NCBI RefSeq assembly: GCF_000007985.2
Contig: NC_002939.5
Coordinates: 1,320,001-1,352,000 of the forward strand
DNA: 32,000 nt
Source: Geobacter sulfurreducens PCA
GTDB lineage: Bacteria > Desulfobacterota > Desulfuromonadia > Geobacterales > Geobacteraceae
Direction of reading: 5' to 3'
Shown here piece after piece: positions 5,836-21,004 of this stretch. Every line of letters begins with the position of its first letter. The first letter of the stretch is position 1. The translations under genes and the position numbers were made by a program. Under the pieces are notes generated by a model. That model was not told where the DNA came from. It searched no databases and saw only the letters and a list, made by a program, of their open reading frames with translations.

Positions 5836-5889
5836 TGATTACCTCCATTGGTATGTGGTCATGCCCTTCGTTGGGTCTTTGCCCTCGAT

Positions 5890-5905: not shown

Positions 5906-6048
5906 AATCGATAATGCTGTGAAATTTCAGTAAAAGGTGGTATCCCGGCGCCCTGCGGGATGTTCGCTCTGACCAAACCTTCGGCAGGGCTGCCTTAAAA
6001 AGAGGCGCCTGTTCCGTCATCCGCATCGACCGCCGGGGAAAATAGGGG

Positions 6049-6077
6049 TTGACGGGGGGATGTCTACATTGTAAATT
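6049..6077 (+). promoter_or_regulatory. Putative sigma70 promoter for the deacetylase operon (TTGACG-N17-TAAATT)
   Basis: TTGACG at 6049-6054, a 17-nt spacer and TAAATT at 6072-6077. It is about 30 nt upstream of the first candidate start. Confidence 0.5.
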
Positions 6078-6104
6078 CGCGTGGTTAAAAGAAATTGAGG
6101 CTAT

Positions 6105-7289
6105 TTGCGTCTTTCTGTTACGGGAATTCTATTGCCAGCCAGAACAGCCCTCATATACTCGAACGATTTCGCCCGGTTCAGCTACGGCGACGATCACCCG
6201 TTCAAGATCCAGCGTTTCATTCTCGCCTTTGAGCTCATGCGCGCCTATGGCCTCATGGAGCTTCCGAACGTCAAAATCCTCGACTGCCCCCGAGCTGCGG
6301 AAGAGGCACTGCTTACCTTTCACGCGCCCGACTATCTCGATCGTCTCAGGGAATTCAGCGAGTCGGACGATGCCCGCGCCGATTTCCGGTACGGTCTCGG
6401 CGATCTGGACAACCCGGTTTTCCGGGGGCTCTACGACTGGGCACGGCTGGGTGCCGGAGGGACCATCGAGGCGGCCCGGCTGGTTGCCGAGGAGGGCTAT
6501 GACATCGCCTTCAATCTTGCGGGGGGGTGGCATCACGCCCATCGGGCCAAGGCATCGGGATTCTCCTATCTGAACGACGCGGTCGTGGCCATCAACCTGC
6601 TCCTGGAAAAGGGCCTGCGGGTGGCGTACCTCGATATCGATGCCCACCACGGCGACGGAGTGCAGGAAGCGTTTTACGATACGGACCGGGTCCTGACCAT
6701 TTCGATTCACGAGAGCGGCATGTACTTCTTTCCCGGCACCGGTTTCGAGGGGGAAACCGGCACCGGCGCGGGCACGGGGTATTCGGTCAATATCCCGCTG
6801 GTGGCCCACGCCGACGATGCGCTTTTCATGAAGGCCTTCGACGAAGTGGCGTTTCCGCTTCTCGCCGCCTATAATCCCGACGTCCTCGTGACTCAACTGG
6901 GCGCCGACACCTTCCGTACCGATCCTCTCACGCGGCTTGAGGTGACGACTCATAGCTACACCTATATCCTGCGCAAGCTCAAGGCGCTCGGCATCCCCTG
7001 GGTTGCCGTGGGAGGGGGCGGATACAACCTGGTCAATGTGGCCAGGGCCTGGACCCTTGCCTGGGGGGTGATGAACGGGGTCGAACTGCCGCCCCGACTG
7101 CCGGATTCGTTTGTGTCGATCATCGGCCGGCTCGGCTATCCCAACAGGATGCTCCTCGATGCCATGCACTGGGCCCAGGAGGACGACCGCAACCAGGCAC
7201 TGGACGCGGTGGAGCGAAGCATAGCTGTCATCCGGAAGACGATTTTTCCGGTGATCATCGGTTCCTATGGCGAGACTTCCGGGGAATGA
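6105..7289 (+). CDS. Histone deacetylase family protein / acetoin-utilisation AcuC-like deacetylase
   Basis: Contains GGWHHAHRAKASGFSYLND, LDIDAHHGDGVQEAFY and TISIHE, the hallmark arginase/deacetylase-fold zinc-site motifs. The start is uncertain: TTG at 6105 after GAGG, or TTG at 6132. Confidence 0.9.
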   Translation: MRLSVTGILLPARTALIYSNDFARFSYGDDHPFKIQRFILAFELMRAYGLMELPNVKILDCPRAAEEALLTFHAPDYLDRLREFSESDDARADFRYGLGDLDNPVFRGLYDWARLGAGGTIEAARLVAEEGYDIAFNLAGGWHHAHRAKASGFSYLNDAVVAINLLLEKGLRVAYLDIDAHHGDGVQEAFYDTDRVLTISIHESGMYFFPGTGFEGETGTGAGTGYSVNIPLVAHADDALFMKAFDEVAFPLLAAYNPDVLVTQLGADTFRTDPLTRLEVTTHSYTYILRKLKALGIPWVAVGGGGYNLVNVARAWTLAWGVMNGVELPPRLPDSFVSIIGRLGYPNRMLLDAMHWAQEDDRNQALDAVERSIAVIRKTIFPVIIGSYGETSGE

Positions 7290-8136
7290 GCCGCTGGTGT
7301 CGGCCTCGGGCCGCGAACTCCATACCCTGCGCGAGGTCAATGGTCTCGCCCCGGCGGAGCGCGACCGGGTTTACGCCGGACTGATTCCACCCCGGCTGTT
7401 TGAACTGCTTGGAATATCGCACGAAACCCTGCGTGGAGCCGACGGGCTCGGCAGGGTACGGATTATCGCGCCGGAGGGAATCGGCCTGGTGCGGATCGAG
7501 GTGAGGGCCCGGCCAGACGACCGGGACACGGTCTTCTTTCTGGAGTTGGCCGATACCCCCTACCGTCAGATTGAGCTGGCCTTTTGCATCATCGCCGACC
7601 CATGTGCCCCGCGTTTCGATGTGGACAGGGATGCCGAAGGGCGGTCCAATTACTTCGCCTCTCAGGGGCGGAACGTCCCCGAAGAGATCCGCGCCATGGC
7701 GGCGGGGCTGTTCCCGAATCAGACGCGCCGCGGCCTCAACCTGTTCGGCGAGTTCTTTCCGCGATTTGAGCGCTTTGTGGACGCCCTCGGTATGGAGATG
7801 ATTGCGGCGGAGCCCCTGACCTACGATAACGCCATCCGCTACGAAAAGTACGGTTTTGACTATGTCACGGGGAAACGGCTCATGGTGGAGATCGATCGGG
7901 AATTCAGGCCTGGCGGGATTCTCCACCAACGGCTCGACGGCTCGACGCCATTCCGGCTGCCCGGTGCCGAACGGACGGTGCGGGGGCGCAGCTGGGCCAT
8001 CCACGACGGCATCATGGACGAGCAGTGGGACGACGTGCGCATCTACAAAATGGTCGGTATCCATGCGGGAGTCGATACCTTTCCTGACCGCGAGAGCGAC
8101 CTTGTTGGCGAAACACGAGGAGGAGTACGAATATGA
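7267..8136 (+). CDS. Conserved hypothetical protein; C-terminal half has a GNAT-like motif (possible divergent acetyltransferase fold)
   Basis: Long ORF overlapping the deacetylase stop by 23 nt, with an alternative GTG at 7297. The segment NQTRRGLNLFGEFFPRFERFVDALGMEMIAAEPLTYDNAIRYEKYGFDY resembles the GNAT A/B motifs (...N..A...YEK.GF). Its stop overlaps the next start as ATGA. Confidence 0.7.
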   Translation: MARLPGNEPLVSASGRELHTLREVNGLAPAERDRVYAGLIPPRLFELLGISHETLRGADGLGRVRIIAPEGIGLVRIEVRARPDDRDTVFFLELADTPYRQIELAFCIIADPCAPRFDVDRDAEGRSNYFASQGRNVPEEIRAMAAGLFPNQTRRGLNLFGEFFPRFERFVDALGMEMIAAEPLTYDNAIRYEKYGFDYVTGKRLMVEIDREFRPGGILHQRLDGSTPFRLPGAERTVRGRSWAIHDGIMDEQWDDVRIYKMVGIHAGVDTFPDRESDLVGETRGGVRI

Positions 8137-9092
8137 GTGCGCAGGTGCAGGACCTGACCCCCATCAAGGGAGTCACCTACTATTACCCACCCCACGACGC
8201 GGTGCTCGTCTTCAAGGACGGCGCGGCCGAGATTCCCTACGGCGGGCTGCCGGTCCCCCTTCTGGAGGAGGATTACGCCTCCCTCGACGGAGAGCCTTCC
8301 TATGATGCGGTCGGAAGGGGAGTCTACCAAACCCTGCGGACCAACCCGGACTGCATCCACTGTGCGGCCTATGCGACGCTGCTGCGGGACGCCTACCCTC
8401 ACTACCTGGCGGAGCTGGCCAGCCACGCTATCATGCTCGACAGCAAGGATGTGGAGGTTCCTTACATCGACCGGAAGATCGTCAGCCTCAAGGTCCTCTC
8501 CCTTCTCGAACCGGACAACGCGGGACTCCCTCTGGAGATCGGCCGTGCCTATCTCGACCGGGGGCTGCGGCTTTCGGCGCTCCACATGTCCACGGTCAGC
8601 ATCTATCGGGCCGAGCACTTCCTGCGGCGCGCCCTGGAACTGACGCCGGAAGACGGCAGAGCGCTCCGCCTGCTGGGGGAGGTCTGCTACCTGCTGGGGA
8701 AATACGAAGAGGCGGCCTCCTGCTGGCTCGATACCCTTGATCTGGCCGATGCCGATGAAGCGGAGCGTTTCAGGGTACGTCTTGCCCGGATCAGCGAGGG
8801 ACGGCTCCCCCTTATTGCCCCGGTGGATTACCTGGAAGCCATCGGAGCAGCATTTACCTGTTTTCACACCGGCGACTACGAGGAAGCCGTTGCCATTCTC
8901 CAGGACGTGCTCATGGACGGGATTTTCTGCGCCGAGTTTCCCATTGCCGACATCCATTGCGTCATCGGCAAGAGCTTCGTGCAGCTGGACATGCCGCGTT
9001 ATGCCGAAGAGTCGTTCCGCGCCGCGCTTCAGCTGGATCCGGCCCACGAGGAGTCGCTTGCCTGCCTCAGGAAGGTCACAGGGGAGGAGTAG
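8133..9092 (+). CDS. TPR-repeat protein
   Basis: The C-terminal half has TPR-like repeats (AEHFLRRALELTPEDGRALRLLGEVCYLLGKYEEAASCW; HTGDYEEAVAILQDVL; PRYAEESFRAALQLDPAHEESL). The start is coupled to the upstream stop through an ATGA overlap. Confidence 0.8.
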   Translation: MSAQVQDLTPIKGVTYYYPPHDAVLVFKDGAAEIPYGGLPVPLLEEDYASLDGEPSYDAVGRGVYQTLRTNPDCIHCAAYATLLRDAYPHYLAELASHAIMLDSKDVEVPYIDRKIVSLKVLSLLEPDNAGLPLEIGRAYLDRGLRLSALHMSTVSIYRAEHFLRRALELTPEDGRALRLLGEVCYLLGKYEEAASCWLDTLDLADADEAERFRVRLARISEGRLPLIAPVDYLEAIGAAFTCFHTGDYEEAVAILQDVLMDGIFCAEFPIADIHCVIGKSFVQLDMPRYAEESFRAALQLDPAHEESLACLRKVTGEE

Positions 9093-9095
9093 GAT

Positions 9096-9197
9096 ATGTT
9101 TGGCTTCAGTATTGCAGACTGGATCTTCATTGCGCTGGTCATGGCCACGATTTTCGCCTGTGTCGCCATTAGCGACATGCGCCGCCCGAAGCGCTGA
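9096..9197 (+). CDS. Candidate 33-aa small membrane protein (MFGFSIADWIFIALVMATIFACVAISDMRRPKR); not in the ORF track
   Basis: ATG lies 6 nt after a strong GGGGAGGAG. The product has one hydrophobic helix and a basic tail. Third-position GC is about 76% by hand count. It sits between two co-oriented genes. Confidence 0.45.
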   Translation: MFGFSIADWIFIALVMATIFACVAISDMRRPKR

Positions 9198-9233
9198 AGC
9201 GATTCAGTCGGATCACCTCGGAAAGGCCGCCAA

Positions 9234-9680
9234 ATGACCGAAGATCAGGAACTGGAAATGGACTCGCGCCCCCTCGGCCTCGTGTTGCTGACCGGGCTCT
9301 ATCTCTTTTTCTTTATCGTTACGGCCACCAGTTACGGTAATCCCTTCCCCTTTCTGGGGCGGATATATGTGGGAACGGCGGCCAAGGCAATCGTGTTCGT
9401 CGACAGCCTCATCTGTCTCTATCTTTTTCTGGGTATCTACAAGAGACAGCTGCTGACTTGGTATTGCCTGATCGGCTACAACCTCTTCGAGGTGGTGAAC
9501 ACCATCATCAACCTGAACATGATTACCACCGCCGAACTGGAACGGATCATTGGAGAGCCGATCGACAAGGAAGCCCTGGTGGTCAACAACATCGCCAGCG
9601 CGTTGGCCATCCTGCTGTTGACGCAGTATATCTACCGGCACCGCGCGTTTTTCACCAACCGGCGCCACTATCTTTTTTAA
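9234..9680 (+). CDS. Hypothetical integral membrane protein (about 4 predicted TM helices)
   Basis: 148-aa ORF with hydrophobic segments (LGLVLLTGLYLFFFIV, AIVFVDSLICLYLFLGI, WYCLIGYNLF, IASALAILLLTQYI). No family recognised. Confidence 0.7.
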   Translation: MTEDQELEMDSRPLGLVLLTGLYLFFFIVTATSYGNPFPFLGRIYVGTAAKAIVFVDSLICLYLFLGIYKRQLLTWYCLIGYNLFEVVNTIINLNMITTAELERIIGEPIDKEALVVNNIASALAILLLTQYIYRHRAFFTNRRHYLF

Positions 9681-9746
9681 TGTGAGCGCGAAGCGGCCCT
9701 GAACACCACTGTTGAGGCGTGACCGCGCCTCTGGTATCATTGGCGG

Positions 9747-9784
9747 CCACTATCGCGCGAGGAATAGTACCGTGGTTTTTGTTT
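9747..9784 (+). terminator. Weak terminator-like element after the deacetylase operon
   Basis: Imperfect hairpin (CCAC-TAT...ATA-gtacc-GTGG) followed by TTTTTGTTT. The stem is poor. Confidence 0.3.
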
Positions 9785-9789
9785 CCCAG

Positions 9790-10650
9790 ATGGATTCGGC
9801 ACACGATGGCGAAGGGCTCTTTCATAAACTGATGCACGGTCTTGCCCCTTCCTTTTTCCACAAGGAGGGGTGCGACTGTCGGGTTGACCTGACCGATACC
9901 CGCGGGGTTTCCATCAGGATCGAGAATCTCAACAAGTATTTCGGCGAAAAGCATGTCCTGAAGGATGTCAATCTGGCCATCAATGCGGGCGAGACCTTCT
10001 GCATCATCGGACCGTCGGGAACCGGCAAGAGCGTTCTCCTGCGTCATATCGTCAAGCTGGATCGTCCCGACAGCGGAGAGATCTTCATCGACGGCCATCC
10101 GGTCTTCGTCAACGCGGGGAAGGATACGCCGAGCGACTACCGCTACAGCATGGTGTTCCAGTCGTCGGCTTTGTTCAACTCCCTGACCGTGGGCGAGAAC
10201 GTGGGGCTCTGGCTGCGCGAGAAGCGGATCTGCAAGGAACATCGCATCCGGGAGATCATCCGCGAGAAGCTGGCCATGGTGGGCTTGGAGAATACCGAGC
10301 AGCTCAAGACGTCGGAACTGTCGGGGGGCATGAAGAAGCGGGTTGCCATTGCCCGGTCCCTGGCCATGAACCCCGATCTCATACTGTATGACGAACCGAC
10401 GGCGGAGTTGGATCCCGTGACCACCGACGAACTGGCGAATACCATCCTGAAGCTCAAGGAGACGACGAAGAACACCACCATAATCGTGACTCACGACCTG
10501 AACTTCGCCCTCTATGTCTCGGACCGCATCGCCATGATGCACGACGGGCGGATCGTCGATGTCGGCACCCCAACGGAGATCAAGGCAAGTCAAAACCCGA
10601 TTGTGAGGGGGTTCATCTACACGACCACCAAGGGGATCAAGGGCGAATGA
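9790..10650 (+). CDS. ABC transporter ATP-binding protein, MlaF/Ttg2A-like; no permease gene adjacent
   Basis: Contains IRIENLNKYFGEKHVLKDVNLAINAGETFCIIGPSGTGKSVLL, LSGGMKKRVAIARSLA and LILYDEPTAELDP. The start is uncertain (listed 9712, ATG 9790 or ATG 9832). I chose 9790 because it lies past the terminator-like element. Confidence 0.85.
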   Translation: MDSAHDGEGLFHKLMHGLAPSFFHKEGCDCRVDLTDTRGVSIRIENLNKYFGEKHVLKDVNLAINAGETFCIIGPSGTGKSVLLRHIVKLDRPDSGEIFIDGHPVFVNAGKDTPSDYRYSMVFQSSALFNSLTVGENVGLWLREKRICKEHRIREIIREKLAMVGLENTEQLKTSELSGGMKKRVAIARSLAMNPDLILYDEPTAELDPVTTDELANTILKLKETTKNTTIIVTHDLNFALYVSDRIAMMHDGRIVDVGTPTEIKASQNPIVRGFIYTTTKGIKGE

Positions 10651-10692
10651 CCGCGTGACCGCGTCAGGTGTTCTGCCCACAGGGGAAGATCC

Positions 10693-11706
10693 ATGAGAGG
10701 ATACGGAAAAGCGTTTGTTGCACTGAGTGTCTCACTGGTCGTCGGCGTCTCGCTTCTCGCGGGCTGCGCGGCGCTCAAGCAGGACCGTCCGCTCCTGCCG
10801 GTCAGGGAGTATGAACGGATGATCGTTGGGCGTCTCGATGCGGAGTACGTGGGGACCGACAACTGTGTGGCCCGTTGCCACAAGCATGAAAAGATAACCG
10901 ACGATTTCCGCCATAGCGTCCACGGCGAGCAGATCCGCCCCGAAACAGGCCTCCCCCTGGTTAACTGCGAATCATGCCACGGGCCGGGAAGCCTGGCCAT
11001 CGAGAAGGTCGGGGAAGATGTGGCGTACAACGACGAACACAAAGTCAAGTGCGACACCGGCAAGCTCCTCGACATCAAAAATCTGCATACCCCCGCTCAA
11101 TCGCTCATCTGCCTCAAATGTCATACCGCCGCATCAACGCCGAGTCTTGCCCACTGGAACACCGGTGTTCATGCCTTGAACGACGTCGGCTGCTTCGACT
11201 GCCACAAGCTTCACCAGGGCTCCCAGCAGAAGGTGAGCCGGGAGGAGATGGCGGAGATGTGCTACAGCTGCCATCCCCAGGTGAAGGCCGAAGCCCAGCT
11301 CTTTTCACACCATCCGCTCCGGGAGAGGAAAATGGCGTGCACCGACTGTCATGAGCCCCATGGTTCCACCCAGGAGCACCTTCTGCGGGGCAACACGGTC
11401 AAGGAGATGTGTACCCGCTGCCACATGGACAAACAGGGCCCCTTTGCCTTCGAGCATGGCGACGTGACCGAGAACTGCTCCACCTGCCACACTCCCCACG
11501 GCTCGGTCAGCAACCACCTCCTGAACGCGGCGATGCCGTTCCTGTGCCTCCAGTGCCATTCGGGCCATTTCTACACCCTCGACGCGGACCCGGCGACTGC
11601 GTCCCAGAACAGGCGGCTTTTCGCCAACCGCTGTACCGACTGCCATTCACAGATTCACGGAACCGATATGCCTTCCGCCGAAGGGCGTGCCTGGTTCCTG
11701 CAGTGA
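10693..11706 (+). CDS. Decaheme c-type cytochrome, MtrA/DmsE/PioA family, with a lipoprotein signal peptide
   Basis: Ten CXXCH motifs: CVARCH, CESCH, CLKCH, CFDCH, CYSCH, CTDCH, CTRCH, CSTCH, CLQCH, CTDCH. Blocks resemble MtrA as I recall it (CESCHGP; SHHPL...CTDCHEPHGS; GPFAFEHGDVTENCSTCHTPHGSV...CLQCH; CTDCHSQIHG). The N-terminus is MRGYGKAFVALSVSLVVGVSLLAGC, with lipobox LAGC. Confidence 0.95.
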   Translation: MRGYGKAFVALSVSLVVGVSLLAGCAALKQDRPLLPVREYERMIVGRLDAEYVGTDNCVARCHKHEKITDDFRHSVHGEQIRPETGLPLVNCESCHGPGSLAIEKVGEDVAYNDEHKVKCDTGKLLDIKNLHTPAQSLICLKCHTAASTPSLAHWNTGVHALNDVGCFDCHKLHQGSQQKVSREEMAEMCYSCHPQVKAEAQLFSHHPLRERKMACTDCHEPHGSTQEHLLRGNTVKEMCTRCHMDKQGPFAFEHGDVTENCSTCHTPHGSVSNHLLNAAMPFLCLQCHSGHFYTLDADPATASQNRRLFANRCTDCHSQIHGTDMPSAEGRAWFLQ

Positions 11707-11737
11707 GTTGCCGACAACTGTGCCAAGGAGTCGACCC

Positions 11738-13849
11738 GTGAAGGAACTCATGAGGCTAAGAGCAAAGCTGGCGCTGGCATTTGTGTTGCTTGCGGCGGCA
11801 ATTCCGGCCGGTGCCGGATGCGAGGAGCTTGTTGCGGCGGCAGAGCCGGAGGATCTCTCCTATGTGTCCGTTGTTCCGCAGGAGAGTGTCACGGAAGAAG
11901 GTGAGTACGTCGAAGTACCCCTTGAGGAGGTTAACGTCCGCACGCGGCAAATTGTCGATCTTTCCGCCGGCTACCGGTTTGTCGATGTCAGCCGTGATGG
12001 GAGCCGGGCCGCTGAATACGATCGTCTCCGGTCGAGCGGGGCGGGGCGGTTCACCGTCGGTTCCGTGGGCAGGGATCTCAAGCTGGTTGTTGAGGGCGAA
12101 TACCTCAATACCAAGGACTACAACGCGTCACTGCTGTTTGACTACAAGGGGTATTATCGGCTGAATCTCCGAACTGAGGCGCTCTATCACAACCTTGACC
12201 ACGAAGCGCCACACGTTCCCATTGCGGCCGACCTGAACCCGACTGACGAGTACGGCATGTACGTGCGGCAGGACAGCATCAATTTCCGCTATAAGTTCCA
12301 CGACTACCCCATTCACCTCAATATCGGCCACTGGATGCTGGTACGCGACGGCTACTCTCAGCTTCGCTTTTCCGATTACGGCTTCGACGAGTCGCCCAAC
12401 CCGGCCGACCTGGACGCGAACAACCAGGACCGGCGCAACAGGCTCCTGTTTCAGAGCCGTCCCGTCAAGAACCACACCCAGGAGGGAACCATCGGCTTTG
12501 ACGCCCATCTGGGACCGGTCAATATCCTCTACACCTTCCTGATCAGGCAGCTGGACGACGGCATCGCGCCGCCCGGCTTCCAGTTTGCGCCCCGCTATGA
12601 CGAAAACGGCGACCTGCTCCGCAGCGCCGGGCTTCTCCAACACAACACGACACCGGAGAGCCGTTACTACTCCCATACCGCCAAGCTCTATACATCGCTT
12701 ACGGGGGGGATCATCGGATCCGCCTCCTATTCATACGGGAAAAGGGATAACCAGTCGTCGCTCACGACCGTGGCCGGAGCCGACCAGACCTCCAATACAC
12801 TGCAGAATGTGGCCGGAGATTTCGTCTATACCCCTTGCCAGTGGTTTTCGTTTTCGACTAAGTACCGGCACCAGGAGATCGACCGGGATGCGCCGTCCGT
12901 CGTCCAGGTGCCCTCGCTGTCGAACCCGGTTGTGAGTGTTCGCTCGGGCATGGATACGCGGCGCGATGTGATCTCGGTCAACTTTTCCCTCCGTCCGAAC
13001 ACCATCCTGACCTTCAATGGCGAGTATCGGGGTGACTTCCAGCAACGCTCGAACACCGGCACGGACGTTGACCGCTGGCGTCTGCCCGATACCACATCCT
13101 CAAACCGCGGCACAATGACCCTGCTGTATCGCCCGTTCAAGGGGATGCGCCTGCGGGCGCTGTACGCCTACACGGCCACCGACAGTCCGTCGTACGGCAC
13201 CGAGGCTGAAAACCGCCATGAGGGGAACATCCTGGCCTCCTATACCATGGCCGGGCGGTGGGGAGTCACCGCCAGCTACAAGATCGTCCGTGAAAACAAT
13301 GACCACATCACGCAGGACGTCACCACCTTCGACGATCCGCCGTTGCATGGAACCTTGACACTGCCTCGCGACCGCCGTTCGGTTCACGGCGCGGCGAGTG
13401 TCTGGTTCGCTCCCCTTGAGGCCCTCATGGTGAGCGTCAGTGCCGGATATCTCCGGGACCACTCCGATCAGGCAATCCTCCTGTCCCGCTTTCTCCTCGG
13501 AGGCTACGCAGGGACCAAGTACACATCCGAGGCGCAGATTATATCGTTGAACGCATCCTATCGGTTCACGGAGTTGGTCGATCTTTCACTGGCACTCCAG
13601 CAGGTGCGTTCGCTTTCCGATTTCAAACCCGAAGATACCACGGCCGACGGGATATCAACCTTTCTGATCAGGGACGTGTCGCAAGCGAAGACCATCGAGA
13701 ACTCGCTCTCCGCGCGGGTCAACTACCATCTCTCGCGACTGGTTTCCTGCGGCCTCGATTATTCCTATCGGGATTACGACAATAAGCTGTCTTCCCTGTA
13801 CGAAGGGAACGTGCATCAGGTAACCGCCCTTGTGAGGGCGAAGTGGTAG
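11738..13849 (+). CDS. Outer-membrane beta-barrel protein, MtrB/PioB-like (decaheme-associated porin)
   Basis: About 700 aa, immediately downstream of the decaheme gene. GTG at 11738 lies 7 nt after AAGGAG (ATG at 11750 is an alternative). It has a signal peptide (LALAFVLLAAAIPAGAGC), alternating hydrophobic beta-strand patterns rich in Y/R/D/N, and a C-terminal ...ALVRAKW aromatic terminus typical of OMPs. The family call rests on size and context. Confidence 0.75.
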   Translation: MKELMRLRAKLALAFVLLAAAIPAGAGCEELVAAAEPEDLSYVSVVPQESVTEEGEYVEVPLEEVNVRTRQIVDLSAGYRFVDVSRDGSRAAEYDRLRSSGAGRFTVGSVGRDLKLVVEGEYLNTKDYNASLLFDYKGYYRLNLRTEALYHNLDHEAPHVPIAADLNPTDEYGMYVRQDSINFRYKFHDYPIHLNIGHWMLVRDGYSQLRFSDYGFDESPNPADLDANNQDRRNRLLFQSRPVKNHTQEGTIGFDAHLGPVNILYTFLIRQLDDGIAPPGFQFAPRYDENGDLLRSAGLLQHNTTPESRYYSHTAKLYTSLTGGIIGSASYSYGKRDNQSSLTTVAGADQTSNTLQNVAGDFVYTPCQWFSFSTKYRHQEIDRDAPSVVQVPSLSNPVVSVRSGMDTRRDVISVNFSLRPNTILTFNGEYRGDFQQRSNTGTDVDRWRLPDTTSSNRGTMTLLYRPFKGMRLRALYAYTATDSPSYGTEAENRHEGNILASYTMAGRWGVTASYKIVRENNDHITQDVTTFDDPPLHGTLTLPRDRRSVHGAASVWFAPLEALMVSVSAGYLRDHSDQAILLSRFLLGGYAGTKYTSEAQIISLNASYRFTELVDLSLALQQVRSLSDFKPEDTTADGISTFLIRDVSQAKTIENSLSARVNYHLSRLVSCGLDYSYRDYDNKLSSLYEGNVHQVTALVRAKW

Positions 13850-13870
13850 CGGGATGACCGGAACCGAGTA

Positions 13871-14833
13871 ATGGCGCTCAAAAAACTCTTCATAGCACTC
13901 ACGTGCATGCTCTGCCTCTGCTGCGGCGCGTCGTCGGCGTCTGCGGCGGGCAAGCTGGTGGCTGCCGTGCTCACCAGCGATATGGAGCGTTACCGTGATG
14001 CGTACCGTTCGTTCCTCAAGGCTCTGGCGGCGAAAGGGTATGAGGAGGGGGCCGTGGAGGTGGTGACGCAGACGCCCAACCCTGACCCCATCTCCTGGGC
14101 GAACAGTGTGCGGAAATTCGATGCCATCAAGCCCGACCTGCTCGTGACGTTCGGTGCTCCCGTCACCCTTGCCGCAAAGCAGGAAACCAGCGGTATTCCC
14201 GTTGTGTTCGTGGACGTCTACGGGCCGGTCGAAACCGGCATCTCGCGCAGCATGTCCCAGGCGGGGGGAAGCCTCTGCGGAGTCAGCTCCAAGGTCCCCG
14301 TAGCAACGCTCATCAAGGCCATGGGCGATATCCGGCCCATCAGGACTCTGGGCGTCCTCTACAATACCCGGGAAGCCGGCTCAATCCTTCAGCTCAAGGA
14401 GGTCAAGCGCGTGGCGGCCCAGCAGGGGTTCGCGGTTGTCGAGGCGAATGTATCGTCCGCTGCGGGGCTCGATACGGCGCTTACCTATCTGCTCGGCCGC
14501 GCTGACTGCCTCTTCGTCTCCGAGAGTTCGGTGATCGGCAGAGGTTTCGACCGCATCGTCAGGAAGGCTACCGACGCACGTGTGGCGGTCATCTCACTTA
14601 CGCCCGGCTCTTCCGAGCGGGGGGCGCTGGTTTCCCTCGAGATCAGCCCGACCGAGCAGGGGCAACTGGCGGCGGATTACGCATCCAAGATCCTTTCCGG
14701 CCGAAAACCGGGAGAGTTACCCGTCTACACACCACGTAAGGTTGACCTGGTGCTCAACATGGGAGTTGCCAGAACGCTGGATCTCCATGTACCATTCAAA
14801 GCATTGAGCGCCGCCACACGAGTGATCAAGTAG
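13871..14833 (+). CDS. Periplasmic substrate-binding protein, ABC_sub_bind/COG2984-like
   Basis: Signal peptide MALKKLFIALTCMLCLCCGASSASAAG. The body alternates alpha/beta in a type I periplasmic-binding-protein-like manner (VLYNTREAGSILQLKEVKRVAAQQGF..., PVYTPRKVDLVLNMGVARTLDLHVP). The family was recognised from memory. Confidence 0.7.
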   Translation: MALKKLFIALTCMLCLCCGASSASAAGKLVAAVLTSDMERYRDAYRSFLKALAAKGYEEGAVEVVTQTPNPDPISWANSVRKFDAIKPDLLVTFGAPVTLAAKQETSGIPVVFVDVYGPVETGISRSMSQAGGSLCGVSSKVPVATLIKAMGDIRPIRTLGVLYNTREAGSILQLKEVKRVAAQQGFAVVEANVSSAAGLDTALTYLLGRADCLFVSESSVIGRGFDRIVRKATDARVAVISLTPGSSERGALVSLEISPTEQGQLAADYASKILSGRKPGELPVYTPRKVDLVLNMGVARTLDLHVPFKALSAATRVIK

Positions 14834-14866
14834 GGAGCGGCCGCGGCACTCCCTTTGAGGTAGTTG

Positions 14867-15262
14867 ATGGGAAATATCCTGATCGTTGATGATGACAGAT
14901 CGTTTTCGCAGTTTCTGAAAAAGTACATTCGTCAGTGCTTTCCCGCGCTGCGCGTGCATACCTGCTCGGACCCCGTCCGGGCCCTCGGACTCATCAGGAA
15001 GGGAGATGTGGATCTCCTCCTCGTGGATTACGAGATGCCTGTCATGGATGGGGAAAAGGTGGTTCGCTATGCCTGCCAGGTGGGCATGGACCGTAACAGG
15101 ATCATCGTCCTGTCGAGTCGTGATGTGGACTATCTGCACCAGCACTTTCCCCTGGGAACCTGCCTGGCGGTCATGAACAAGTATGAGGCCGGCCAGAAAG
15201 CAGTGCTCGACATGGTATTGGGGTCACTGCAGCGCAAGACGTCGGAAGCGGTATGCGGGTAA
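14867..15262 (+). CDS. Stand-alone response-regulator receiver protein (CheY-like)
   Basis: Contains ILIVDDD, LLLVDYEMPVMDG (phosphoacceptor Asp), VLSS and MNK. ATG lies 6 nt after GAGG. No output domain. Confidence 0.85.
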   Translation: MGNILIVDDDRSFSQFLKKYIRQCFPALRVHTCSDPVRALGLIRKGDVDLLLVDYEMPVMDGEKVVRYACQVGMDRNRIIVLSSRDVDYLHQHFPLGTCLAVMNKYEAGQKAVLDMVLGSLQRKTSEAVCG

Positions 15263-15278
15263 CGAAGGAGGCCATGGG

Positions 15279-15671
15279 ATGGCTGGCAAGGAGATAACGG
15301 TTACTTTCTATCGGCAGAACCACGTGCGGGACAACTGGAAGGTCGATTTGCAGGGGGCCGAGTCGCAACGTTTTTTCGGCACGCTGGCCGACGATCTCTC
15401 CCGCAGCGGGGTTATCCTCAAGCAGGCAGTCAACGACGGTTTCACCATCGACATCAACAGTTACGGCGACCTGCTCAACTCGATCCGGATTTCGTCGCCG
15501 ACCGACGGTTTCGCCAACGTGTGTATTGGCCACGTCATCGGTCAGAGCCCGAATCTCGACCTGCTGGACGATATCAGGCGCGCCGTGACGCGCATAGCTT
15601 TTGCCCCGGAAACCGTCCCTCCCGAGGACCATAACCGCAAGGTCTGCCACAACTGCGGCTGCGGCTGCTGA
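15279..15671 (+). CDS. Hypothetical 130-aa protein with a C-terminal Cys cluster (CHNCGCGC)
   Basis: ATG lies 7 nt after GAAGGAGG, 17 nt past the receiver gene stop. No signal peptide. The last 8 residues contain 4 Cys and 1 His. No family recognised. The listed ORF start at 15183 overlaps the receiver gene and was rejected. Confidence 0.7.
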   Translation: MAGKEITVTFYRQNHVRDNWKVDLQGAESQRFFGTLADDLSRSGVILKQAVNDGFTIDINSYGDLLNSIRISSPTDGFANVCIGHVIGQSPNLDLLDDIRRAVTRIAFAPETVPPEDHNRKVCHNCGCGC

Positions 15672-15681
15672 TTCAGCCCTT

Positions 15682-16167
15682 TCAGGGAAGCACGGCAGGG
15701 AGGATTTCCGCCGTGATGGAGCCGTCGGTAAGGGTTACAACGGCATAGGTAAGGTTGCCGGCTCCCCGCTTCAGGCAGCCCGGATTGACGTAGAGGATGC
15801 CGTCGGTTGTTTCGATGCAGGCAACGTGGGTATGTCCGAAGAGGACCACTGCCGCGTCAACGGCGGCGGCCCGTTCCCGGAGCCGTTCAAGGCCCGACTT
15901 GACGTGGTAGATGTCTCCATGGGTCAGAAGAAAGCGCCGGCCGGCCAGTTCCAGCGACACCTCGCGGGGGTGGGCGGGGGAGCAGTCGCAGTTGCCTTGG
16001 ACTTTGATGATGGTTTTTCCCGTGGCATCCTCAAGGAAGTCGGCATCCTGAAGTTCGTCGCCCAGATGAACGACGTGGCCGGCATCTTCGTGCAGGTCGA
16101 GGATACTCAGTGCCAGGCGCTGATTGCCGTGGGTATCGGAGAGGACCACGATTTTCATAGTATTCAT
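15682..16167 (-). CDS. Metallophosphoesterase, YfcE/MJ0936 family
   Basis: Contains MKIVVLSDTHGN, HLGD, GNCD, LTHGD and FGHTH, the classic calcineurin-like phosphoesterase motifs. Confidence 0.9.
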   Translation of the reverse strand: MNTMKIVVLSDTHGNQRLALSILDLHEDAGHVVHLGDELQDADFLEDATGKTIIKVQGNCDCSPAHPREVSLELAGRRFLLTHGDIYHVKSGLERLRERAAAVDAAVVLFGHTHVACIETTDGILYVNPGCLKRGAGNLTYAVVTLTDGSITAEILPAVLP

Positions 16168-16296
16168 TCTAGCAGAGCGCCGCTGAATGCCTCAACAGGA
16201 ATAGTGGGAACACGCGCCCATGGTGAAGCGCTTACGCAGTGATCCCGGCAACCGACGCCAGTTTCTCCGGCTCGGTGCTGGCCCGACGGACCATTC

Positions 16297-17178
16297 ATGA
16301 CCAGGAAACATGTTCTTATCGCCGGGGTAACCCTGGTTGCATTGATCATCCTCTTTACCTTTTCGGTGCAGATGGCGCGGATTCTCATGGGAGATATGAC
16401 GGCCGCAACCATCGGCGACGGGATTGGCTATGCGGAGGTGAAGGGGCCCATCATCGATTCCCAGGAAACCGTCAAACAGCTCGACGACCTTCGCAAGAAG
16501 AGCAGCGTCAAGGCAGTAGTGCTGAGGGTCGAGTCGCCGGGCGGGGTCATTGGCCCGTCCCAGGAGATATACGCCGCGGTCAAGCGGTTGGCCGCCACCA
16601 AGAAGGTTGTTGTTTCCATGGGGAGCGTGGCGGCCTCGGGCGGCTACCACGTCGCCGTGCCCGCTGCCGTGATCTATGCCAATCCGGGGACCATCACCGG
16701 CAGCATTGGCGTACTCATGAAGCTCTCGAATATCGAAGGGCTCATGGACAAGGTGGGCCTCAAGGCATTTACCCTCAAGAGCGGCAAGTTCAAGGATTCC
16801 GGCTCTCCCGTGCGGAAGCTCACCGAGGAGGAGCGGGCCGTTCTTCAGGGGGTCATCGACAACCTTCACGATCAGTTCGTACGTGCTGTGGCGGAGGGAA
16901 GACAGCTGCCGGTCGAGGAGGTGCGCCGGCTTGCCGACGGCAGGGTCTACACCGGTGAGCAGGCCCTTCGTCTCAAGCTCGTGGACCGGCTCGGCACGCT
17001 GCACGATGCCGTAATGGAGGCAGGGCGTCTGGCTGGAATCGAGGGAGAGCCGACCCTGATCATCCCCCCGAAAAAACGCAAGCTGCTGCGGGACATGCTC
17101 TTCGGCGAAGTGGCCGAGGCGGTACGCGGGTCGGTGCGCAAGGAGGAGGGACTCAGCTTCAGCTACGAACTGGAGTGA
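16297..17178 (+). CDS. sppA: Signal peptide peptidase SppA, 36K type
   Basis: N-terminal TM segment, then VVLRVESPGGV, SMGSVAASGGYHVA and ANPGTITGSIGV, as in the ClpP/crotonase-fold S49 peptidases. Confidence 0.9.
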   Translation: MTRKHVLIAGVTLVALIILFTFSVQMARILMGDMTAATIGDGIGYAEVKGPIIDSQETVKQLDDLRKKSSVKAVVLRVESPGGVIGPSQEIYAAVKRLAATKKVVVSMGSVAASGGYHVAVPAAVIYANPGTITGSIGVLMKLSNIEGLMDKVGLKAFTLKSGKFKDSGSPVRKLTEEERAVLQGVIDNLHDQFVRAVAEGRQLPVEEVRRLADGRVYTGEQALRLKLVDRLGTLHDAVMEAGRLAGIEGEPTLIIPPKKRKLLRDMLFGEVAEAVRGSVRKEEGLSFSYELE

Positions 17179-17259: not shown

Positions 17260-18006
17260 TCAGCGCGGCATGGGGCAGTAGAGGTTGCCGTAGGGGCGTC
17301 TGCTCTTGGGCAGGACTTTCACGAACTCTTCCGCCATCACTTCGCTGAAGTCGATGCCGAAGTCCGCACAGTAGTCCTTCAGGTAGCGCTCCAGTTCGGC
17401 ACGGTCGCCATCGGTCAGTTCAAAGACCCCGACCTCGCCGGAGAGCTTCGACTCGTCCACGCCGCCCCGCACGAAGATCGTTCCGCCGTGCATGCCGGTG
17501 CCGAACCGGAAGCCGTGTTTCGGCTTTTCCGGGTCATCCGTGAACATGCCGAGCAGTACCAGTACCCCGCCTGCCATGTACTCGCCGAAGAAGTCACCCG
17601 CCTTGCCACCGGCAATGAGCACGGGCTTGTTCTCGTTGTAGGATTTCATGTGGATGCCTACCCGGTAGCCCACGTCTTTGCGGATGTGGACCCGTCCGCC
17701 GCGCATGCCGTAGCCCAGGACGTCGCCCGCGTGGCCGTGCACGATGACTTTGCCCGCATTCATGGTGTTGCCGATGTTGTCCTGGCCGTTGTCGTTGACA
17801 ACCACGGTGGCGCCGTTCATGAACGCTGCCAGGTCGTTGCCGGGAACGCCGTTGATGATGATTTTTACCGGCTTGTTGATCCCGTCGCCGATGAAATACT
17901 GCCCGTTCACGTTGTCGAGCACGATCTCCGATGCTCCGGCCGCCACCGCCTCGCGTACTTTCTGGTTCAGATCCCGGTAGTAAAGACCCTGTGCGTTAAT
18001 GTTCAT
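17260..18006 (-). CDS. Glutamate synthase GXGXG-domain subunit (GltB C-terminal domain-like)
   Basis: Repetitive beta-helix motifs as in GltB domain 3 / FwdC: GDGINKPVKIIINGVPGNDLAAFMNGATVVVNDNGQDNIGNTMNAGKVIVHGHAGDVLGYGMRGGRVHI. Confidence 0.9.
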   Translation of the reverse strand: MNINAQGLYYRDLNQKVREAVAAGASEIVLDNVNGQYFIGDGINKPVKIIINGVPGNDLAAFMNGATVVVNDNGQDNIGNTMNAGKVIVHGHAGDVLGYGMRGGRVHIRKDVGYRVGIHMKSYNENKPVLIAGGKAGDFFGEYMAGGVLVLLGMFTDDPEKPKHGFRFGTGMHGGTIFVRGGVDESKLSGEVGVFELTDGDRAELERYLKDYCADFGIDFSEVMAEEFVKVLPKSRRPYGNLYCPMPR

Positions 18007-18071
18007 AATACAAACCTCTCCTGAAGGGGCAGGCTCGGAGCAATGGATATCCGGTTCCTGGTCCCGATGGT

Positions 18072-19196: not shown

Positions 19197-19243
19197 TGTT
19201 CGAACCTCGGTCTGGTCGTCGAATCGTGTGAGCTGCCGGTCCT

Positions 19244-21000: not shown

Positions 21001-21004
21001 GGGG

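What the first reader, a model, noticed from the sequence alone, without database searches (positions are those of the whole stretch)
9790..15671. Two-component MtrA/MtrB-type porin-cytochrome module with a lipidated decaheme, inside an uncharacterised six-gene cluster
Seen in sequence:
- A 337-aa protein has exactly ten CXXCH motifs and MtrA-like blocks. It is followed 31 nt later by a roughly 700-aa signal-peptide protein with beta-barrel character and an aromatic C-terminus.
- No MtrC/OmcA-type surface decaheme is encoded next to them.
- The decaheme carries a lipobox (LLAGC), unlike soluble periplasmic MtrA.
- All six genes are co-oriented with short gaps: an MlaF-like ABC ATPase with no MlaE/MlaD partner, the decaheme, the barrel, a periplasmic COG2984-type binding protein, a stand-alone receiver and a Cys-tailed protein.

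Established knowledge: two-gene MtrAB-like modules without MtrC (PioAB, MtoAB) are associated with Fe(II) oxidation and electron uptake. Mtr modules with MtrC are associated with metal reduction. The characterised Geobacter conduits (OmbB-OmaB-OmcB and the Ext clusters) are not of this type.

Inference: this could be a regulated trans-outer-membrane electron conduit, possibly for electron uptake. Its linkage to an orphan ATPase, a binding protein and a receiver is not something I know to have been described.
Basis: partly seen in the sequence, partly recalled or inferred. Interest (0 to 1): 0.8.

Follow-up and report, generated by a model that had tools for sequence, protein, structure and literature searches.

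The report
Geobacter OmcI MtrAB-like conduit locus
This is the omcI (GSU1228)-GSU1229 locus of Geobacter sulfurreducens: a lipid-anchored ten-haem cytochrome and a 26-strand outer-membrane barrel that are real relatives of the Shewanella MtrA/MtrB electron conduit. The pairing is already in the literature and in RefSeq names, but its function has not been tested and its gene neighbours hint at a link to signalling.

Summary

**What it is**
- The window is Geobacter sulfurreducens PCA. The cytochrome is the named protein OmcI (GSU1228).
- OmcI aligns end to end with solved MtrA (E 1.9e-46) and passes the DmsE-family cut-off.
- The next gene models as a 26-strand barrel whose best structural match is MtrB (6R2Q_B, TM about 0.7). 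It fails the curated MtrB/PioB sequence models.
- No second cytochrome lies in the 32 kb window.

**What is already known**
- A 2024 survey reported OmcI as an MtrA homolog in one operon with an MtrB/PioB porin and ABC genes.
- A 2025 paper described MtrAB in Desulfuromonas.

**What 102 related loci add**
- The conserved core is OmcI, barrel and a PF04392 binding protein.
- The ATPase is left over from an MlaE-MlaF-MlaD system that is intact in Desulfuromonadales.
- The receiver and the Cys-tail protein occur only in Geobacteraceae. Another clade has a chemoreceptor in that position.

**Function**
Function is open. A published five-conduit deletion strain keeps these genes yet reduces no metals.

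Interest is moderate. The finding as given is already known.

The parts
10693..11706 (+). omcI (GSU1228): lipoprotein decahaem c-type cytochrome of the MtrA/DmsE family. Lipobox LLAG-C25; haem sites are CX3CH at residues 58-63 plus nine CXXCH.
   Evidence: TIGR03508 272.3 bits, cut-off 192.2; identical to AAR34604.1; 6R2Q_A MtrA, E 1.9e-46, residues 9-329 against 16-328; lipobox Cys and CX3CH conserved in about 60 orthologs.
11738..13849 (+). GSU1229: MtrB-like 26-strand outer-membrane beta-barrel. Start is GTG 11738, or ATG 11750. Signal peptide, acidic disordered N-terminal linker (residues 18-59), C-terminal ...KW.
   Evidence: same 90% cluster as AAR34605.2; RefSeq names close homologs 'MtrB/PioB family outer membrane beta-barrel protein'; AF2 pLDDT 85.9, pTM 0.76, 26 long strands; Foldseek top hit 6R2Q_B, E 1.4e-18, TM 0.68/0.73; next hit E 1e-8; 22 of 53 family members hit PF11854. 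No hit of its own to PF11854 or TIGR03509.
13871..14833 (+). Periplasmic solute-binding protein of family PF04392 (COG2984), with no cognate permease nearby. It is the third conserved member of the core trio.
   Evidence: 149.4 bits; PDB 3LKV E 6e-33, 6HNI, 3LFT; follows the barrel in nearly all loci of all three architecture classes.
9772..10650 (+). MlaF-type ABC ATPase (start GTG 9772 or ATG 9790), orphan in this genome region. It is a relic of an MlaE-MlaF-MlaD system.
   Evidence: ABC_tran; MlaF model 166 bits, below cut-off; 65% identical to the ATPase that lies between MlaE and MlaD in L054; MlaE 248 bits and MlaD 68 bits in L054; no MlaE or MlaD in the window; 73-83% identity across Geobacteraceae.
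14867..15262 (+). Stand-alone CheY-like receiver domain protein (131 aa) with an intact phospho-acceptor set.
   Evidence: PF00072, 48.4 bits; D8/D9/D10, D54, S83 and K105 at least 95% conserved in 41 orthologs; present only in the Geobacteraceae class of loci.
15279..15671 (+). Cytoplasmic 130-aa orphan protein with invariant C82-x-G-H85 and an invariant C-terminal C-H-N-C-G-C-G-C tail. Family is restricted to Geobacteraceae; function unknown (a metal or Fe-S ligand set is only an inference).
   Evidence: 767 homologs, 62-95% identity, none with a functional annotation; invariant residues; AF2 pLDDT 85.5; tail disordered; no PDB fold match; best E 0.04; only 23 clusters among 1.84 billion representatives; no Pfam or NCBIfam hit.
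9234..9680 (+). 148-aa membrane protein (about 3-4 hydrophobic segments), conserved upstream neighbour in Geobacteraceae. It occupies the position held by the 505-aa protein plus MlaE in Desulfuromonadales. Membership in the unit is unproven.
   Evidence: 37-78% identity in Geobacteraceae loci; no Pfam hit; 26% identity over 132 aa to the N-terminal half of MlaE, E 0.025; inconclusive.
6105..9092 (+). Three translationally coupled upstream genes: histone-deacetylase-family enzyme (6105-7289), 289-aa hypothetical (7267-8136) and TPR protein (8133-9092). They are conserved upstream of the cluster in Geobacteraceae and in the Mla-containing Desulfuromonadales class. This is context, not a demonstrated part.

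Best explanation
GSU1228 (OmcI) and GSU1229 form an MtrAB/PioAB/MtoAB-type two-component porin-cytochrome conduit.

**Proposed mechanism**
- OmcI is exported and matured with ten c-haems. Its N-terminal Cys25 carries a lipid that tethers it to the inner leaflet of the outer membrane.
- The haem wire is threaded through the lumen of the 26-strand GSU1229 barrel.
- Electrons can then pass between periplasmic carriers (PpcA-type cytochromes) and the cell exterior without an MtrC-type cap.

**Neighbours**
- The periplasmic PF04392 binding protein is a conserved third partner.
- Its recurrent pairing with a chemoreceptor (Desulfuromonadales) or a CheY-like receiver (Geobacteraceae) suggests that the conduit is tied to signal transduction.
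- The ATPase is an evolutionary leftover of a neighbouring Mla-type lipid transporter. It is not an importer working with the binding protein.

**Physiological role**
- I commit to a specialised, low-flux conduit rather than a main metal-respiration route.
- Possible roles are residual electrode current, electron uptake or DIET, or sensing.

**Shown versus inferred**
- Shown: homology, predicted fold, lipobox, gene linkage.
- Inferred: threading of OmcI through the barrel, direction of electron flow, the role of the binding protein.
For: **OmcI is an MtrA homolog**
- E 1.9e-46 to the 6R2Q_A sequence, end to end, with all ten haem motifs aligned.
- TIGR03508 score 272.3 against a cut-off of 192.2.

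**The barrel resembles MtrB**
- AF2 model with pLDDT 85.9 and 26 strands.
- Top Foldseek hit is MtrB, 6R2Q_B: E 1.4e-18, TM 0.68/0.73. This is ten orders of magnitude better than the 22-strand TonB receptors and LptD that follow.
- 22 of 53 family members hit PF11854.
- Distant family members hit TIGR03509 at E 3e-8.

**Family-wide features and linkage**
- The lipobox Cys sits at a fixed distance before a CX3CH first haem site in about 60 orthologs.
- The pair is adjacent in 69 GTDB and 33 metagenome loci. The binding protein follows in all three architecture classes, which have different flanks.
- A chemoreceptor follows in 16 GTDB and 10 metagenome loci.
- A receiver with an intact active site follows in 41 Geobacteraceae loci.
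- The ATPase ortholog lies between MlaE and MlaD in Desulfuromonadales.

**Literature**
- OmcI is grouped with MtrA/DmsE, in one operon with an MtrB/PioB porin (PMC11492766).
- D. acetexigens MtrA/MtrB homologs are expressed on electrodes (PMC12133095).
- The OmcI mutant is cited as impaired on Fe(III).
- omcI transcripts are higher in DIET-grown G. sulfurreducens.
- The delta-5 strain keeps an unexplained residual electrode current (PMC6148476).
Against: - The window barrel does not reach any curated MtrB/PioB sequence model: no hit to PF11854 or TIGR03509. A family profile finds no PDB sequence. Membership therefore rests on predicted fold and on relatives.
- It lacks the CXXC motif that I recall as conserved in Shewanella MtrB. 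Its only Cys are at positions 24, 363 and 667.
- No complex model or biochemical data show OmcI inside the barrel.
[quoted passage not shown] The pair is therefore not sufficient for outward metal reduction under laboratory conditions.
- Each signalling link occurs within a single clade with conserved synteny, so the number of independent observations is small.
- No transcript data were examined for co-transcription. The promoter and terminator scans were uninformative.
Confidence: 0.75

Rival explanations
1. Sensory conduit. The OmcI-barrel wire does not carry respiratory flux. It reports the redox state of extracellular minerals, electrodes or partner cells to the periplasm. The binding protein and a chemoreceptor (Desulfuromonadales), or an unknown kinase plus the CheY-like receiver and Cys-tail protein (Geobacteraceae), then convert this into taxis or regulation.
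For: - A chemoreceptor (TM, ~230-aa periplasmic CHASE4-like domain, TM, HAMP, MCPsignal 147-150 bits) lies directly after the barrel or the binding protein in 16 GTDB and 10 metagenome loci.
- A receiver with a conserved D54/S83/K105 set follows in 41 Geobacteraceae loci.
- The binding protein has no transporter partner nearby.
- The pair is insufficient for metal respiration in the delta-5 strain.
Against: - The evidence is adjacency only.
- The chemoreceptor and the receiver each occur within one clade with conserved flanks. Some relatives have neither: cysK follows the barrel directly in L075 and L080.
- The chemoreceptor has no haem motif.
- No histidine kinase lies in the window cluster.
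- Known ligands of PF04392 proteins are aromatic amino acids, not redox signals.
Confidence: 0.18
2. Ordinary outward EET conduit. OmcI-GSU1229 is simply a sixth, partly redundant route for Fe(III)/Mn(IV)/electrode reduction. It hands electrons to extracellular cytochrome filaments. The neighbours are unrelated genes kept together by synteny.
For: - The OmcI mutant is cited as affected on Fe(III) citrate and oxides.
- D. acetexigens homologs are expressed on anodes.
- The delta-5 strain has a residual electrode current of unknown origin, and its authors note unexamined conduit-like regions.
- The 12-gene synteny in Geobacteraceae includes opposite-strand housekeeping genes. This shows that conserved order there need not mean shared function.
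Against: - The delta-5 strain, with this pair intact, shows no metal reduction at all.
- The binding protein stays attached to the pair in three classes with different flanks. Pure synteny does not explain this.
Confidence: 0.3
3. Inward conduit of PioAB/MtoAB type. The two-gene module takes up electrons from Fe(II), cathodes or DIET partners.
For: - Two-gene architecture with no MtrC.
- omcI is among more than 25 cytochrome genes with higher transcripts in DIET-grown, electron-accepting G. sulfurreducens.
- The pair is not needed or not sufficient for outward metal reduction.
Against: - No PioC/MtoD/CymA-type accessory gene is nearby. OmcI is the only multihaem ORF in the window; a monohaem or HiPIP-type partner was not searched for specifically.
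- The DIET signal is not specific to omcI.
- The sequence gives no information on direction.
- Desulfuromonas homologs are expressed on anodes, which is outward flow.
Confidence: 0.2
4. Solute or metal uptake system, as suggested in PMC11492766. The barrel is a porin, and the binding protein plus ATPase form an ABC importer, with the cytochrome reducing the substrate (for example a metal) for import.
For: [quoted passage not shown]
Against: - No permease gene is in the cluster or anywhere in the window.
- The ATPase ortholog belongs to an MlaE-MlaF-MlaD set in Desulfuromonadales. From established knowledge, Mla systems use MlaC/MlaD rather than a PF04392-type binding protein.
- The ATPase is absent from the chemoreceptor class, where the binding protein persists.
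Confidence: 0.07

Closest known systems
MtrA-MtrB of the Shewanella MtrCAB complex (PDB 6R2Q)
   Same: - The decahaem aligns end to end with MtrA, with all ten haem sites matching.
- The partner is a predicted 26-strand barrel whose best structural match is MtrB.
- The barrel gene lies immediately downstream of the cytochrome gene.
   Different: - No MtrC-type surface decahaem is nearby. MtrC/F was found in only two Desulfuromonadia species.
- OmcI is a lipoprotein and its first haem site is CX3CH.
- The barrel is below every curated MtrB/PioB threshold and has about 10% identity in the structural alignment.
- It has no CXXC motif.
- A PF04392 binding protein is a constant neighbour.
PioAB (Rhodopseudomonas palustris TIE-1) and MtoAB (Sideroxydans ES-1), the two-component Fe(II)-oxidation modules
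   Same: A two-gene decahaem plus barrel architecture with no surface cytochrome (description of PioAB/MtoAB in PMC5566968).
   Different: - The host is a dissimilatory metal reducer.
- No PioC/MtoD/CymA-type partner is adjacent.
- The cytochrome is lipid-anchored.
- Direction of electron flow is untested.
[quoted passage not shown]
   Same: - This is the same protein family and, for the 2024 paper, the very same G. sulfurreducens protein (OmcI).
- That paper reports it in one operon with an MtrB/PioB porin, plus ABC ATP-binding and substrate-binding genes in Geobacterales.
- Loci L052/L054 are close relatives of D. acetexigens: their MlaE is 97% identical.
   Different: As far as I could read them, those papers do not describe the following:
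- the lipobox and CX3CH signature;
- the MlaFED origin of the ATPase;
- the universal binding-protein partner;
- the chemoreceptor, receiver and Cys-tail neighbours;
- the haem motif in the barrel loops of non-Geobacteraceae members.
GSU2203 (OmcK) / GSU2204 pair of G. sulfurreducens (NCBIfam NF041028 / NF041027)
   Same: This is a paralogous decahaem plus barrel-like pair. OmcI scores 256.5 bits on the GSU2203 model and the barrel 106 bits on the GSU2204 model.
   Different: - Both scores are below the cut-offs of 325 and 350.
- The GSU2204 family is defined as CXXCH-containing (seleno)proteins.
- The window barrel has no such motif, whereas its Desulfuromonadales relatives do.
Geobacter porin-cytochrome conduits (OmbB-OmaB-OmcB; ExtABCD, ExtEFG, ExtHIJKL)
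   Same: Same organism and the same design principle: a cytochrome threaded through an outer-membrane barrel.
   Different: - Those are unrelated protein families and include an extracellular lipoprotein cytochrome (PMC4282303, PMC6148476).
- Here there is one MtrA-family cytochrome and no outer partner.
- Those five clusters together account for all metal reduction.

Membership tests
MtrA/DmsE decahaem cytochrome family (TIGR03508) | Whole-protein score above the curated cut-off | tested here: met
   272.3 bits against a cut-off of 192.2; profile positions 1-257 of 258 covered.
MtrA/DmsE decahaem cytochrome family (TIGR03508) | Ten c-type haem attachment sites collinear with MtrA | tested here: met
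   Nine CXXCH plus one CX3CH. All align with the ten sites of 6R2Q_A, with a one-residue insertion in the first. Haem occupancy itself cannot be tested here.
MtrA/DmsE decahaem cytochrome family (TIGR03508) | Soluble periplasmic precursor with a signal peptidase I site and no lipid anchor, as in Shewanella MtrA (from established knowledge; not a formal family criterion) | tested here: not met
   Lipobox LLAG-C25. A Cys sits at a fixed 33 or 36 residues before the first haem site in about 60 orthologs.
MtrB/PioB outer-membrane barrel family (TIGR03509 / PF11854) | Match to the curated sequence models | tested here: not met
   - The window protein has no hit at E <= 0.1 to PF11854 or TIGR03509.
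- 22 of 53 family members hit PF11854, best E 1.4e-10.
- Distant members hit TIGR03509 at E 3e-8, but with 32 bits against a cut-off of 240.
- The protein is a remote relative, not a member by curated thresholds.
MtrB/PioB outer-membrane barrel family (TIGR03509 / PF11854) | 26-strand beta-barrel fold like MtrB | tested here: met
   AF2 model with pLDDT 85.9 and 26 long strands. Foldseek top hit 6R2Q_B with E 1.4e-18 and TM 0.68/0.73. This is a predicted structure, not a solved one.
MtrB/PioB outer-membrane barrel family (TIGR03509 / PF11854) | Gene immediately adjacent to a decahaem MtrA-family gene | tested here: met
   A 31-nt gap in the window. The adjacency is conserved in 69 GTDB and 33 metagenome loci.
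MtrB/PioB outer-membrane barrel family (TIGR03509 / PF11854) | Cytochrome physically inserted in the barrel lumen | not testable with these tools
   No multimer prediction was available and no biochemical data exist.
MtrB/PioB outer-membrane barrel family (TIGR03509 / PF11854) | N-terminal CXXC motif of Shewanella MtrB (recalled from the literature, not verified here) | tested here: not met
   Cys occur only at residues 24, 363 and 667, with no CXXC.
Three-component MtrCAB conduit | MtrC/OmcA-type surface decahaem encoded with MtrAB | tested here: not met
   OmcI is the only multihaem ORF in 32 kb. A partner encoded elsewhere in the genome could not be checked.
Two-component PioAB/MtoAB conduit | Decahaem plus barrel with no surface cytochrome | tested here: met
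Two-component PioAB/MtoAB conduit | Function in Fe(II) oxidation or electron uptake | not testable with these tools
   The only evidence is indirect: omcI transcripts are higher in DIET-grown G. sulfurreducens.
GSU2203/GSU2204 family pair (NF041028 / NF041027) | Scores above the curated cut-offs, and a CXXCH (or selenocysteine) motif in the barrel-like protein | tested here: not met
   256.5 bits against 325, and 106.2 against 350. There is no CXXCH in the window barrel.
MlaFEDB-type ABC lipid transporter | MlaF ATPase encoded with MlaE permease and MlaD (MCE) protein | tested here: not met
   - The window has no MlaE or MlaD.
- Orthologous ATPases (65-71% identity) lie between MlaE (PF02405, 248 bits) and MlaD (PF02470, 68 bits) in Desulfuromonadales.
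- Whether MlaE/MlaD exist elsewhere in the G. sulfurreducens genome could not be determined.
PF04392-type binding-protein-dependent ABC importer | Binding protein encoded with a cognate permease and ATPase | tested here: not met
   The binding protein matches PF04392 at 149.4 bits. No permease is in the cluster, and the only ATPase is of MlaF type.

The most novel reading that the evidence does not exclude
The MtrAB-like wire, its constant PF04392 binding-protein partner and the downstream chemoreceptor (Desulfuromonadales) or CheY-like receiver plus Cys-tail protein (Geobacteraceae) form an extracellular-redox sensing device. An outer-membrane haem wire would let the cell sense insoluble electron acceptors, electrodes or partner cells and steer taxis or gene expression, rather than respire through it.
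Probability: 0.15. Interest if true: 0.8.

Novelty: already known. Interest (0 to 1): 0.42.

Why it matters
**Why a specialist would care**
- G. sulfurreducens is the main model for extracellular electron transfer. The field has treated its Pcc/Ext conduits as independent inventions unrelated to Shewanella Mtr.
- A vertically inherited MtrAB-type pair present in every sampled Geobacteraceae genus complicates that view.
- It is also a concrete candidate for two open items:
  - the unexplained residual electrode current of the five-conduit deletion strain;
  - the route of electron uptake in DIET and on cathodes.

**What limits the interest**
- The pairing has been published (2024, 2025) and the cytochrome has carried a name for years. 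The finding as given is therefore not new.

**What this analysis adds as testable leads**
- The binding protein is the universal third partner.
- The ATPase is an Mla relic, not part of an importer.
- Chemoreceptor or receiver genes are linked to the pair.
- The barrels of non-Geobacteraceae relatives carry a haem-binding motif in a loop predicted to be extracellular.

Tried and rejected
1. **Barrel family profile against PDB sequences:** no hit even at E 10. Homology to MtrB had to be shown by fold instead.
2. **Search for an MlaE partner of the orphan ATPase in G. sulfurreducens:**
   - The MlaE of L054 gave 6480 hits. All 120 listed carry Desulfuromonas-type or no names, and four large clusters held no Geobacter member.
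   - The result is inconclusive. It cost the last protein search.
3. **mem148 as a degenerate MlaE:** 26% identity over 132 aa, E 0.025 in a single comparison. Too weak to claim.
4. **Cys-tail protein:**
   - No Pfam or NCBIfam hit.
   - No PDB fold match: best E 0.04, TM about 0.3, vaguely thioredoxin-like.
   - An exhaustive profile search found only 23 clusters, all about the same length except one weak hit.
   - Function is left open.
5. **Promoter and terminator scan of 5700-16400:** counts were not above shuffled expectation and no terminator lay in an intergenic gap. It is uninformative on operon structure.
6. **Rfam scan:** nothing in the cluster.
7. **Primary source for the OmcI deletion phenotype (Aklujkar 2013):** not in the held library. 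Only secondary citations could be read.
8. **Rejected: barrel as a lipoprotein.** Cys24 is a strain-specific Gly-to-Cys change.
9. **Rejected: minus-strand ORFs overlapping the cluster** (for example 9652-10680 and 12128-12676). They have no support, whereas every + strand gene has conserved homologs.

Full report
**Identity of the window**

The cytochrome ORF 10693-11706 is identical to AAR34604.1, 'lipoprotein cytochrome c' of Geobacter sulfurreducens PCA. The next ORF falls in the same 90% cluster as AAR34605.2, 'outer membrane channel lipoprotein, putative'. RefSeq names close homologs 'DmsE family decaheme c-type cytochrome' and 'MtrB/PioB family outer membrane beta-barrel protein'. Papers give GSU1228 the gene name omcI. 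The finding is therefore the omcI-GSU1229 locus of the main model organism for extracellular electron transfer.

**Check of the observation**

Cytochrome:
- It is 337 aa long with the lipobox LLAG-C25.
- It has nine CXXCH motifs plus one CX3CH (C58-V-A-R-C62-H63), not ten CXXCH.

Barrel:
- It starts 31 nt downstream at GTG 11738, or 43 nt downstream at ATG 11750.
- It has a signal peptide and ends in ...RAKW.

Gene arrangement:
- All six genes lie on the + strand, with gaps of 42, 31, 21, 33 and 16 nt.
- Pfam and NCBIfam confirm an ABC ATPase, a PF04392 (COG2984-type) binding protein and a stand-alone receiver. The barrel has no Pfam hit and only a sub-threshold NCBIfam hit to the GSU2204 model (see "Is the pair MtrAB-like?"); the Cys-tail protein has no hit in either.
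- OmcI is the only multihaem ORF in the 32 kb window.
- tblastn with MlaE and MlaD finds nothing in the window.

**Is the pair MtrAB-like?**

Cytochrome:
- OmcI scores 272.3 bits on TIGR03508, the DmsE-family decahaem model, whose cut-off is 192.2.
- It aligns over residues 9-329 with chain A of the Shewanella baltica Mtr complex (6R2Q) at E 1.9e-46. All ten haem sites are in register. The first has a one-residue insertion.

Barrel:
- It has no hit of its own to PF11854 or TIGR03509.
- A profile of 53 homologs finds no PDB sequence.
- The AlphaFold2 model built on that alignment is confident: pLDDT 85.9 and pTM 0.76. It shows 26 long antiparallel strands after a disordered acidic linker.
- Its best Foldseek match in the PDB is MtrB, 6R2Q_B: E 1.4e-18, TM 0.68/0.73. 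The 22-strand TonB-dependent receptors and LptD follow from E 1e-8.
- 22 of 53 family members hit PF11854.
- Distant members hit TIGR03509 at E 3e-8, far below the trusted score.

The barrel is a remote MtrB/PioB relative by fold and by transitive sequence evidence. It is not a member by curated thresholds.

OmcI and the barrel also score below cut-off on the GSU2203 (OmcK) and GSU2204 models. These describe a paralogous pair in the same genome.

**Family-wide features**

- In about 60 orthologs, the Cys that follows the signal-peptide h-region sits exactly 33 residues (Geobacteraceae) or 36 residues (Desulfuromonadales) before the first haem site.
- That first site is always CX3CH, followed by nine CXXCH.
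- Lipid anchoring and the odd first motif are therefore signatures of this lineage. They distinguish it from soluble MtrA.
- The barrel's Cys24 is not conserved. Strains 87-94% identical have Gly, and most orthologs show a signal peptidase I-type site.

**Neighbourhood survey**

I examined 69 GTDB species loci and 33 metagenome loci. They fall into three architecture classes.

| Class | Loci | Gene order |
|---|---|---|
| Geobacteraceae (Geobacter, Geotalea, Geomonas, Citrifermentans, Geomobilimonas and others) | about 44 | HDAC, hyp289, TPR, mem148, ATPase, OmcI, barrel, SBP, REC, Cys-tail, (YfcE on the minus strand), SppA |
| Desulfuromonadales with Mla | 6 GTDB, at least 4 metagenome | HDAC, hyp289, TPR, 505-aa protein, MlaE, ATPase, MlaD, OmcI, barrel, SBP |
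| Desulfuromonadales with chemoreceptor | 16 GTDB, 10 metagenome | OmcI, barrel, (SBP), methyl-accepting chemotaxis protein |

- In the Mla class, Pfam gives MlaE 248 bits and MlaD 68 bits.
- The window ATPase is 65% identical to the ATPase in that MlaF position, including its N- and C-terminal extensions.
- The chemoreceptor has two TM segments, a periplasmic domain of about 230 aa that is weakly CHASE4-like, a HAMP domain and an MCP signalling domain.
- Five chemoreceptor loci lack the binding protein. In two metagenome loci cysK follows the barrel directly.

Three conclusions follow:
1. The unit conserved at every depth is OmcI, barrel and the PF04392 binding protein.
2. The 'orphan MlaF-like ATPase' is what remains of an adjacent MlaFED system. 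It does not belong with the binding protein.
3. The receiver and the Cys-tail gene are additions specific to Geobacteraceae. In that family even opposite-strand housekeeping genes are syntenic, so adjacency there is weak evidence on its own.

**The other proteins**

Receiver:
- It keeps D8-D10, D54, S83 and K105 in 41 orthologs, so it is probably phosphorylatable.

Cys-tail protein:
- It is better conserved than the barrel, at 62-95% identity over 767 homologs.
- It has invariant C82-x-G-H85 and an invariant C-terminal CHNCGCGC.
- It folds confidently (pLDDT 85.5) but matches no solved fold.
- It forms only 23 clusters among 1.84 billion representative proteins.
- It is a lineage-restricted orphan. 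A metal or Fe-S site is plausible but unproven.

Binding protein:
- It resembles solved PF04392 proteins (3LKV, 6HNI, 3LFT). Their known ligands are aromatic amino acids.

**What is already published**

- PMC11492766 (BMC Genomics 2024) defines a 'DmsE/MtoA/MtrA/OmcI' group and states it had not been reported before in Geobacter.
  - It notes that the gene shares an operon with an MtrB/PioB-like porin. [quoted passage not shown]
  - It suggests a role in uptake of substances such as metals.
- PMC12133095 (ISME J 2025) reports MtrA/MtrB homologs of Desulfuromonas acetexigens.
  - They are expressed on electrodes, match 6R2Q structurally, and mtrAB is clustered in 45 other Desulfobacterota.
  - Loci L052/L054 are close relatives of that organism. 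Their MlaE is 97% identical.
- I found nothing on the chemoreceptor link and nothing under the locus tags GSU1225-1227 or GSU1229-1232.

**Function**

- Secondary citations say an omcI mutant was impaired on Fe(III) citrate and Fe(III) oxide.
- omcI is among more than 25 cytochrome genes with higher transcripts in DIET-grown, electron-accepting G. sulfurreducens.
- Against a major respiratory role: the delta-5 strain lacks omcBC, extABCD, extEFG and extHIJKL but retains this locus.
  - It kept only a slow residual electrode current of unknown origin.
  - Its authors mention other conduit-like regions not yet examined.

My best reading is a genuine MtrAB-type wire with OmcI lipid-tethered and threaded through GSU1229. 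It serves a specialised, low-flux purpose.

| Reading | Confidence |
|---|---|
| The pair is such a conduit | about 0.75 |
| Auxiliary outward route | about 0.3 |
| Electron uptake | about 0.2 |
| Redox sensing coupled to the binding protein and chemoreceptor or receiver | about 0.15-0.2 |
| Importer (the 2024 paper's suggestion) | about 0.07 |

The importer reading is unlikely because there is no permease and the ATPase is of MlaF type.

**Side observation in relatives**

- Barrels of both Desulfuromonadales classes carry an invariant C-X(2-5)-C-H-[MLK]-[QE]-S motif.
- It lies in the segment that corresponds to the loop between strands 7 and 8. By the topology of the model this loop is extracellular.
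- All Geobacteraceae barrels lack it.
- This echoes the NCBIfam name 'GSU2204 family CXXCH-containing (seleno)protein'. It raises the possibility that some MtrB-like barrels are themselves haem proteins.

**Verdict**

- The feature is real and correctly read as an MtrAB-type module.
- It is ordinary in the sense that it is already named, annotated and published.
- Its function remains open.
- The neighbourhood analysis gives several specific, testable leads.

Noticed in passing
L042-L062 and L073-L101 (for example L058 9878-12001, motif near residue 228-235); corresponds to window barrel residues about 210-230 (window about 12377-12440): MtrB-like barrels of the Desulfuromonadales classes carry an invariant C-X(2-5)-C-H-[MLK]-[QE]-S haem-binding-like motif. 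It lies in what the model predicts to be the extracellular loop between strands 7 and 8. All Geobacteraceae orthologs, including the window protein, lack it. The barrel itself may be a c-type haem protein in those lineages.
   Followed up: partly
window 28996-29071 (+): c-di-GMP-I riboswitch aptamer (RF01051, 48.6 bits, E 9.7e-7), upstream of a + strand ORF at 29226-29939.
   Followed up: no
window 15279-15671 (+): The Cys-tail protein is a lineage-restricted orphan family: 23 clusters among 1.84 billion representatives. It has invariant C82-x-G-H85 and a C-terminal CHNCGCGC. The predicted fold is confident but matches nothing in the PDB.
   Followed up: yes
window 11819-11821 (barrel codon 24): The 'lipobox' Cys24 that led to the PCA annotation 'outer membrane channel lipoprotein' is Gly in homologs 87-94% identical and is absent from the rest of the family. 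Lipidation of the barrel is doubtful.
   Followed up: yes
window 6105-9092 (+): The histone-deacetylase-family gene, a 289-aa hypothetical and a TPR gene have overlapping stops and starts (7267/7289 and 8133/8136). They travel with the cluster in Geobacteraceae and in the Mla-containing Desulfuromonadales class.
   Followed up: partly
L044, L050, L052, L054, L056, L085, L094 (for example L054 4288-5832): A conserved protein of about 505 aa, with a signal peptide, rich in W/F/P repeats and without a Pfam hit, precedes MlaE in the Desulfuromonadales class. In Geobacteraceae its place is taken by the 148-aa membrane protein at window 9234-9680.
   Followed up: no
window 17260-22579 (-): Downstream lies an archaeal-type split glutamate synthase cluster on the minus strand: GXGXG, GATase_2, a pyridine nucleotide-disulphide oxidoreductase, a ferredoxin-like protein and Glu_synthase. 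It is followed by a PilZ-domain gene. It is unrelated to the finding.
   Followed up: no
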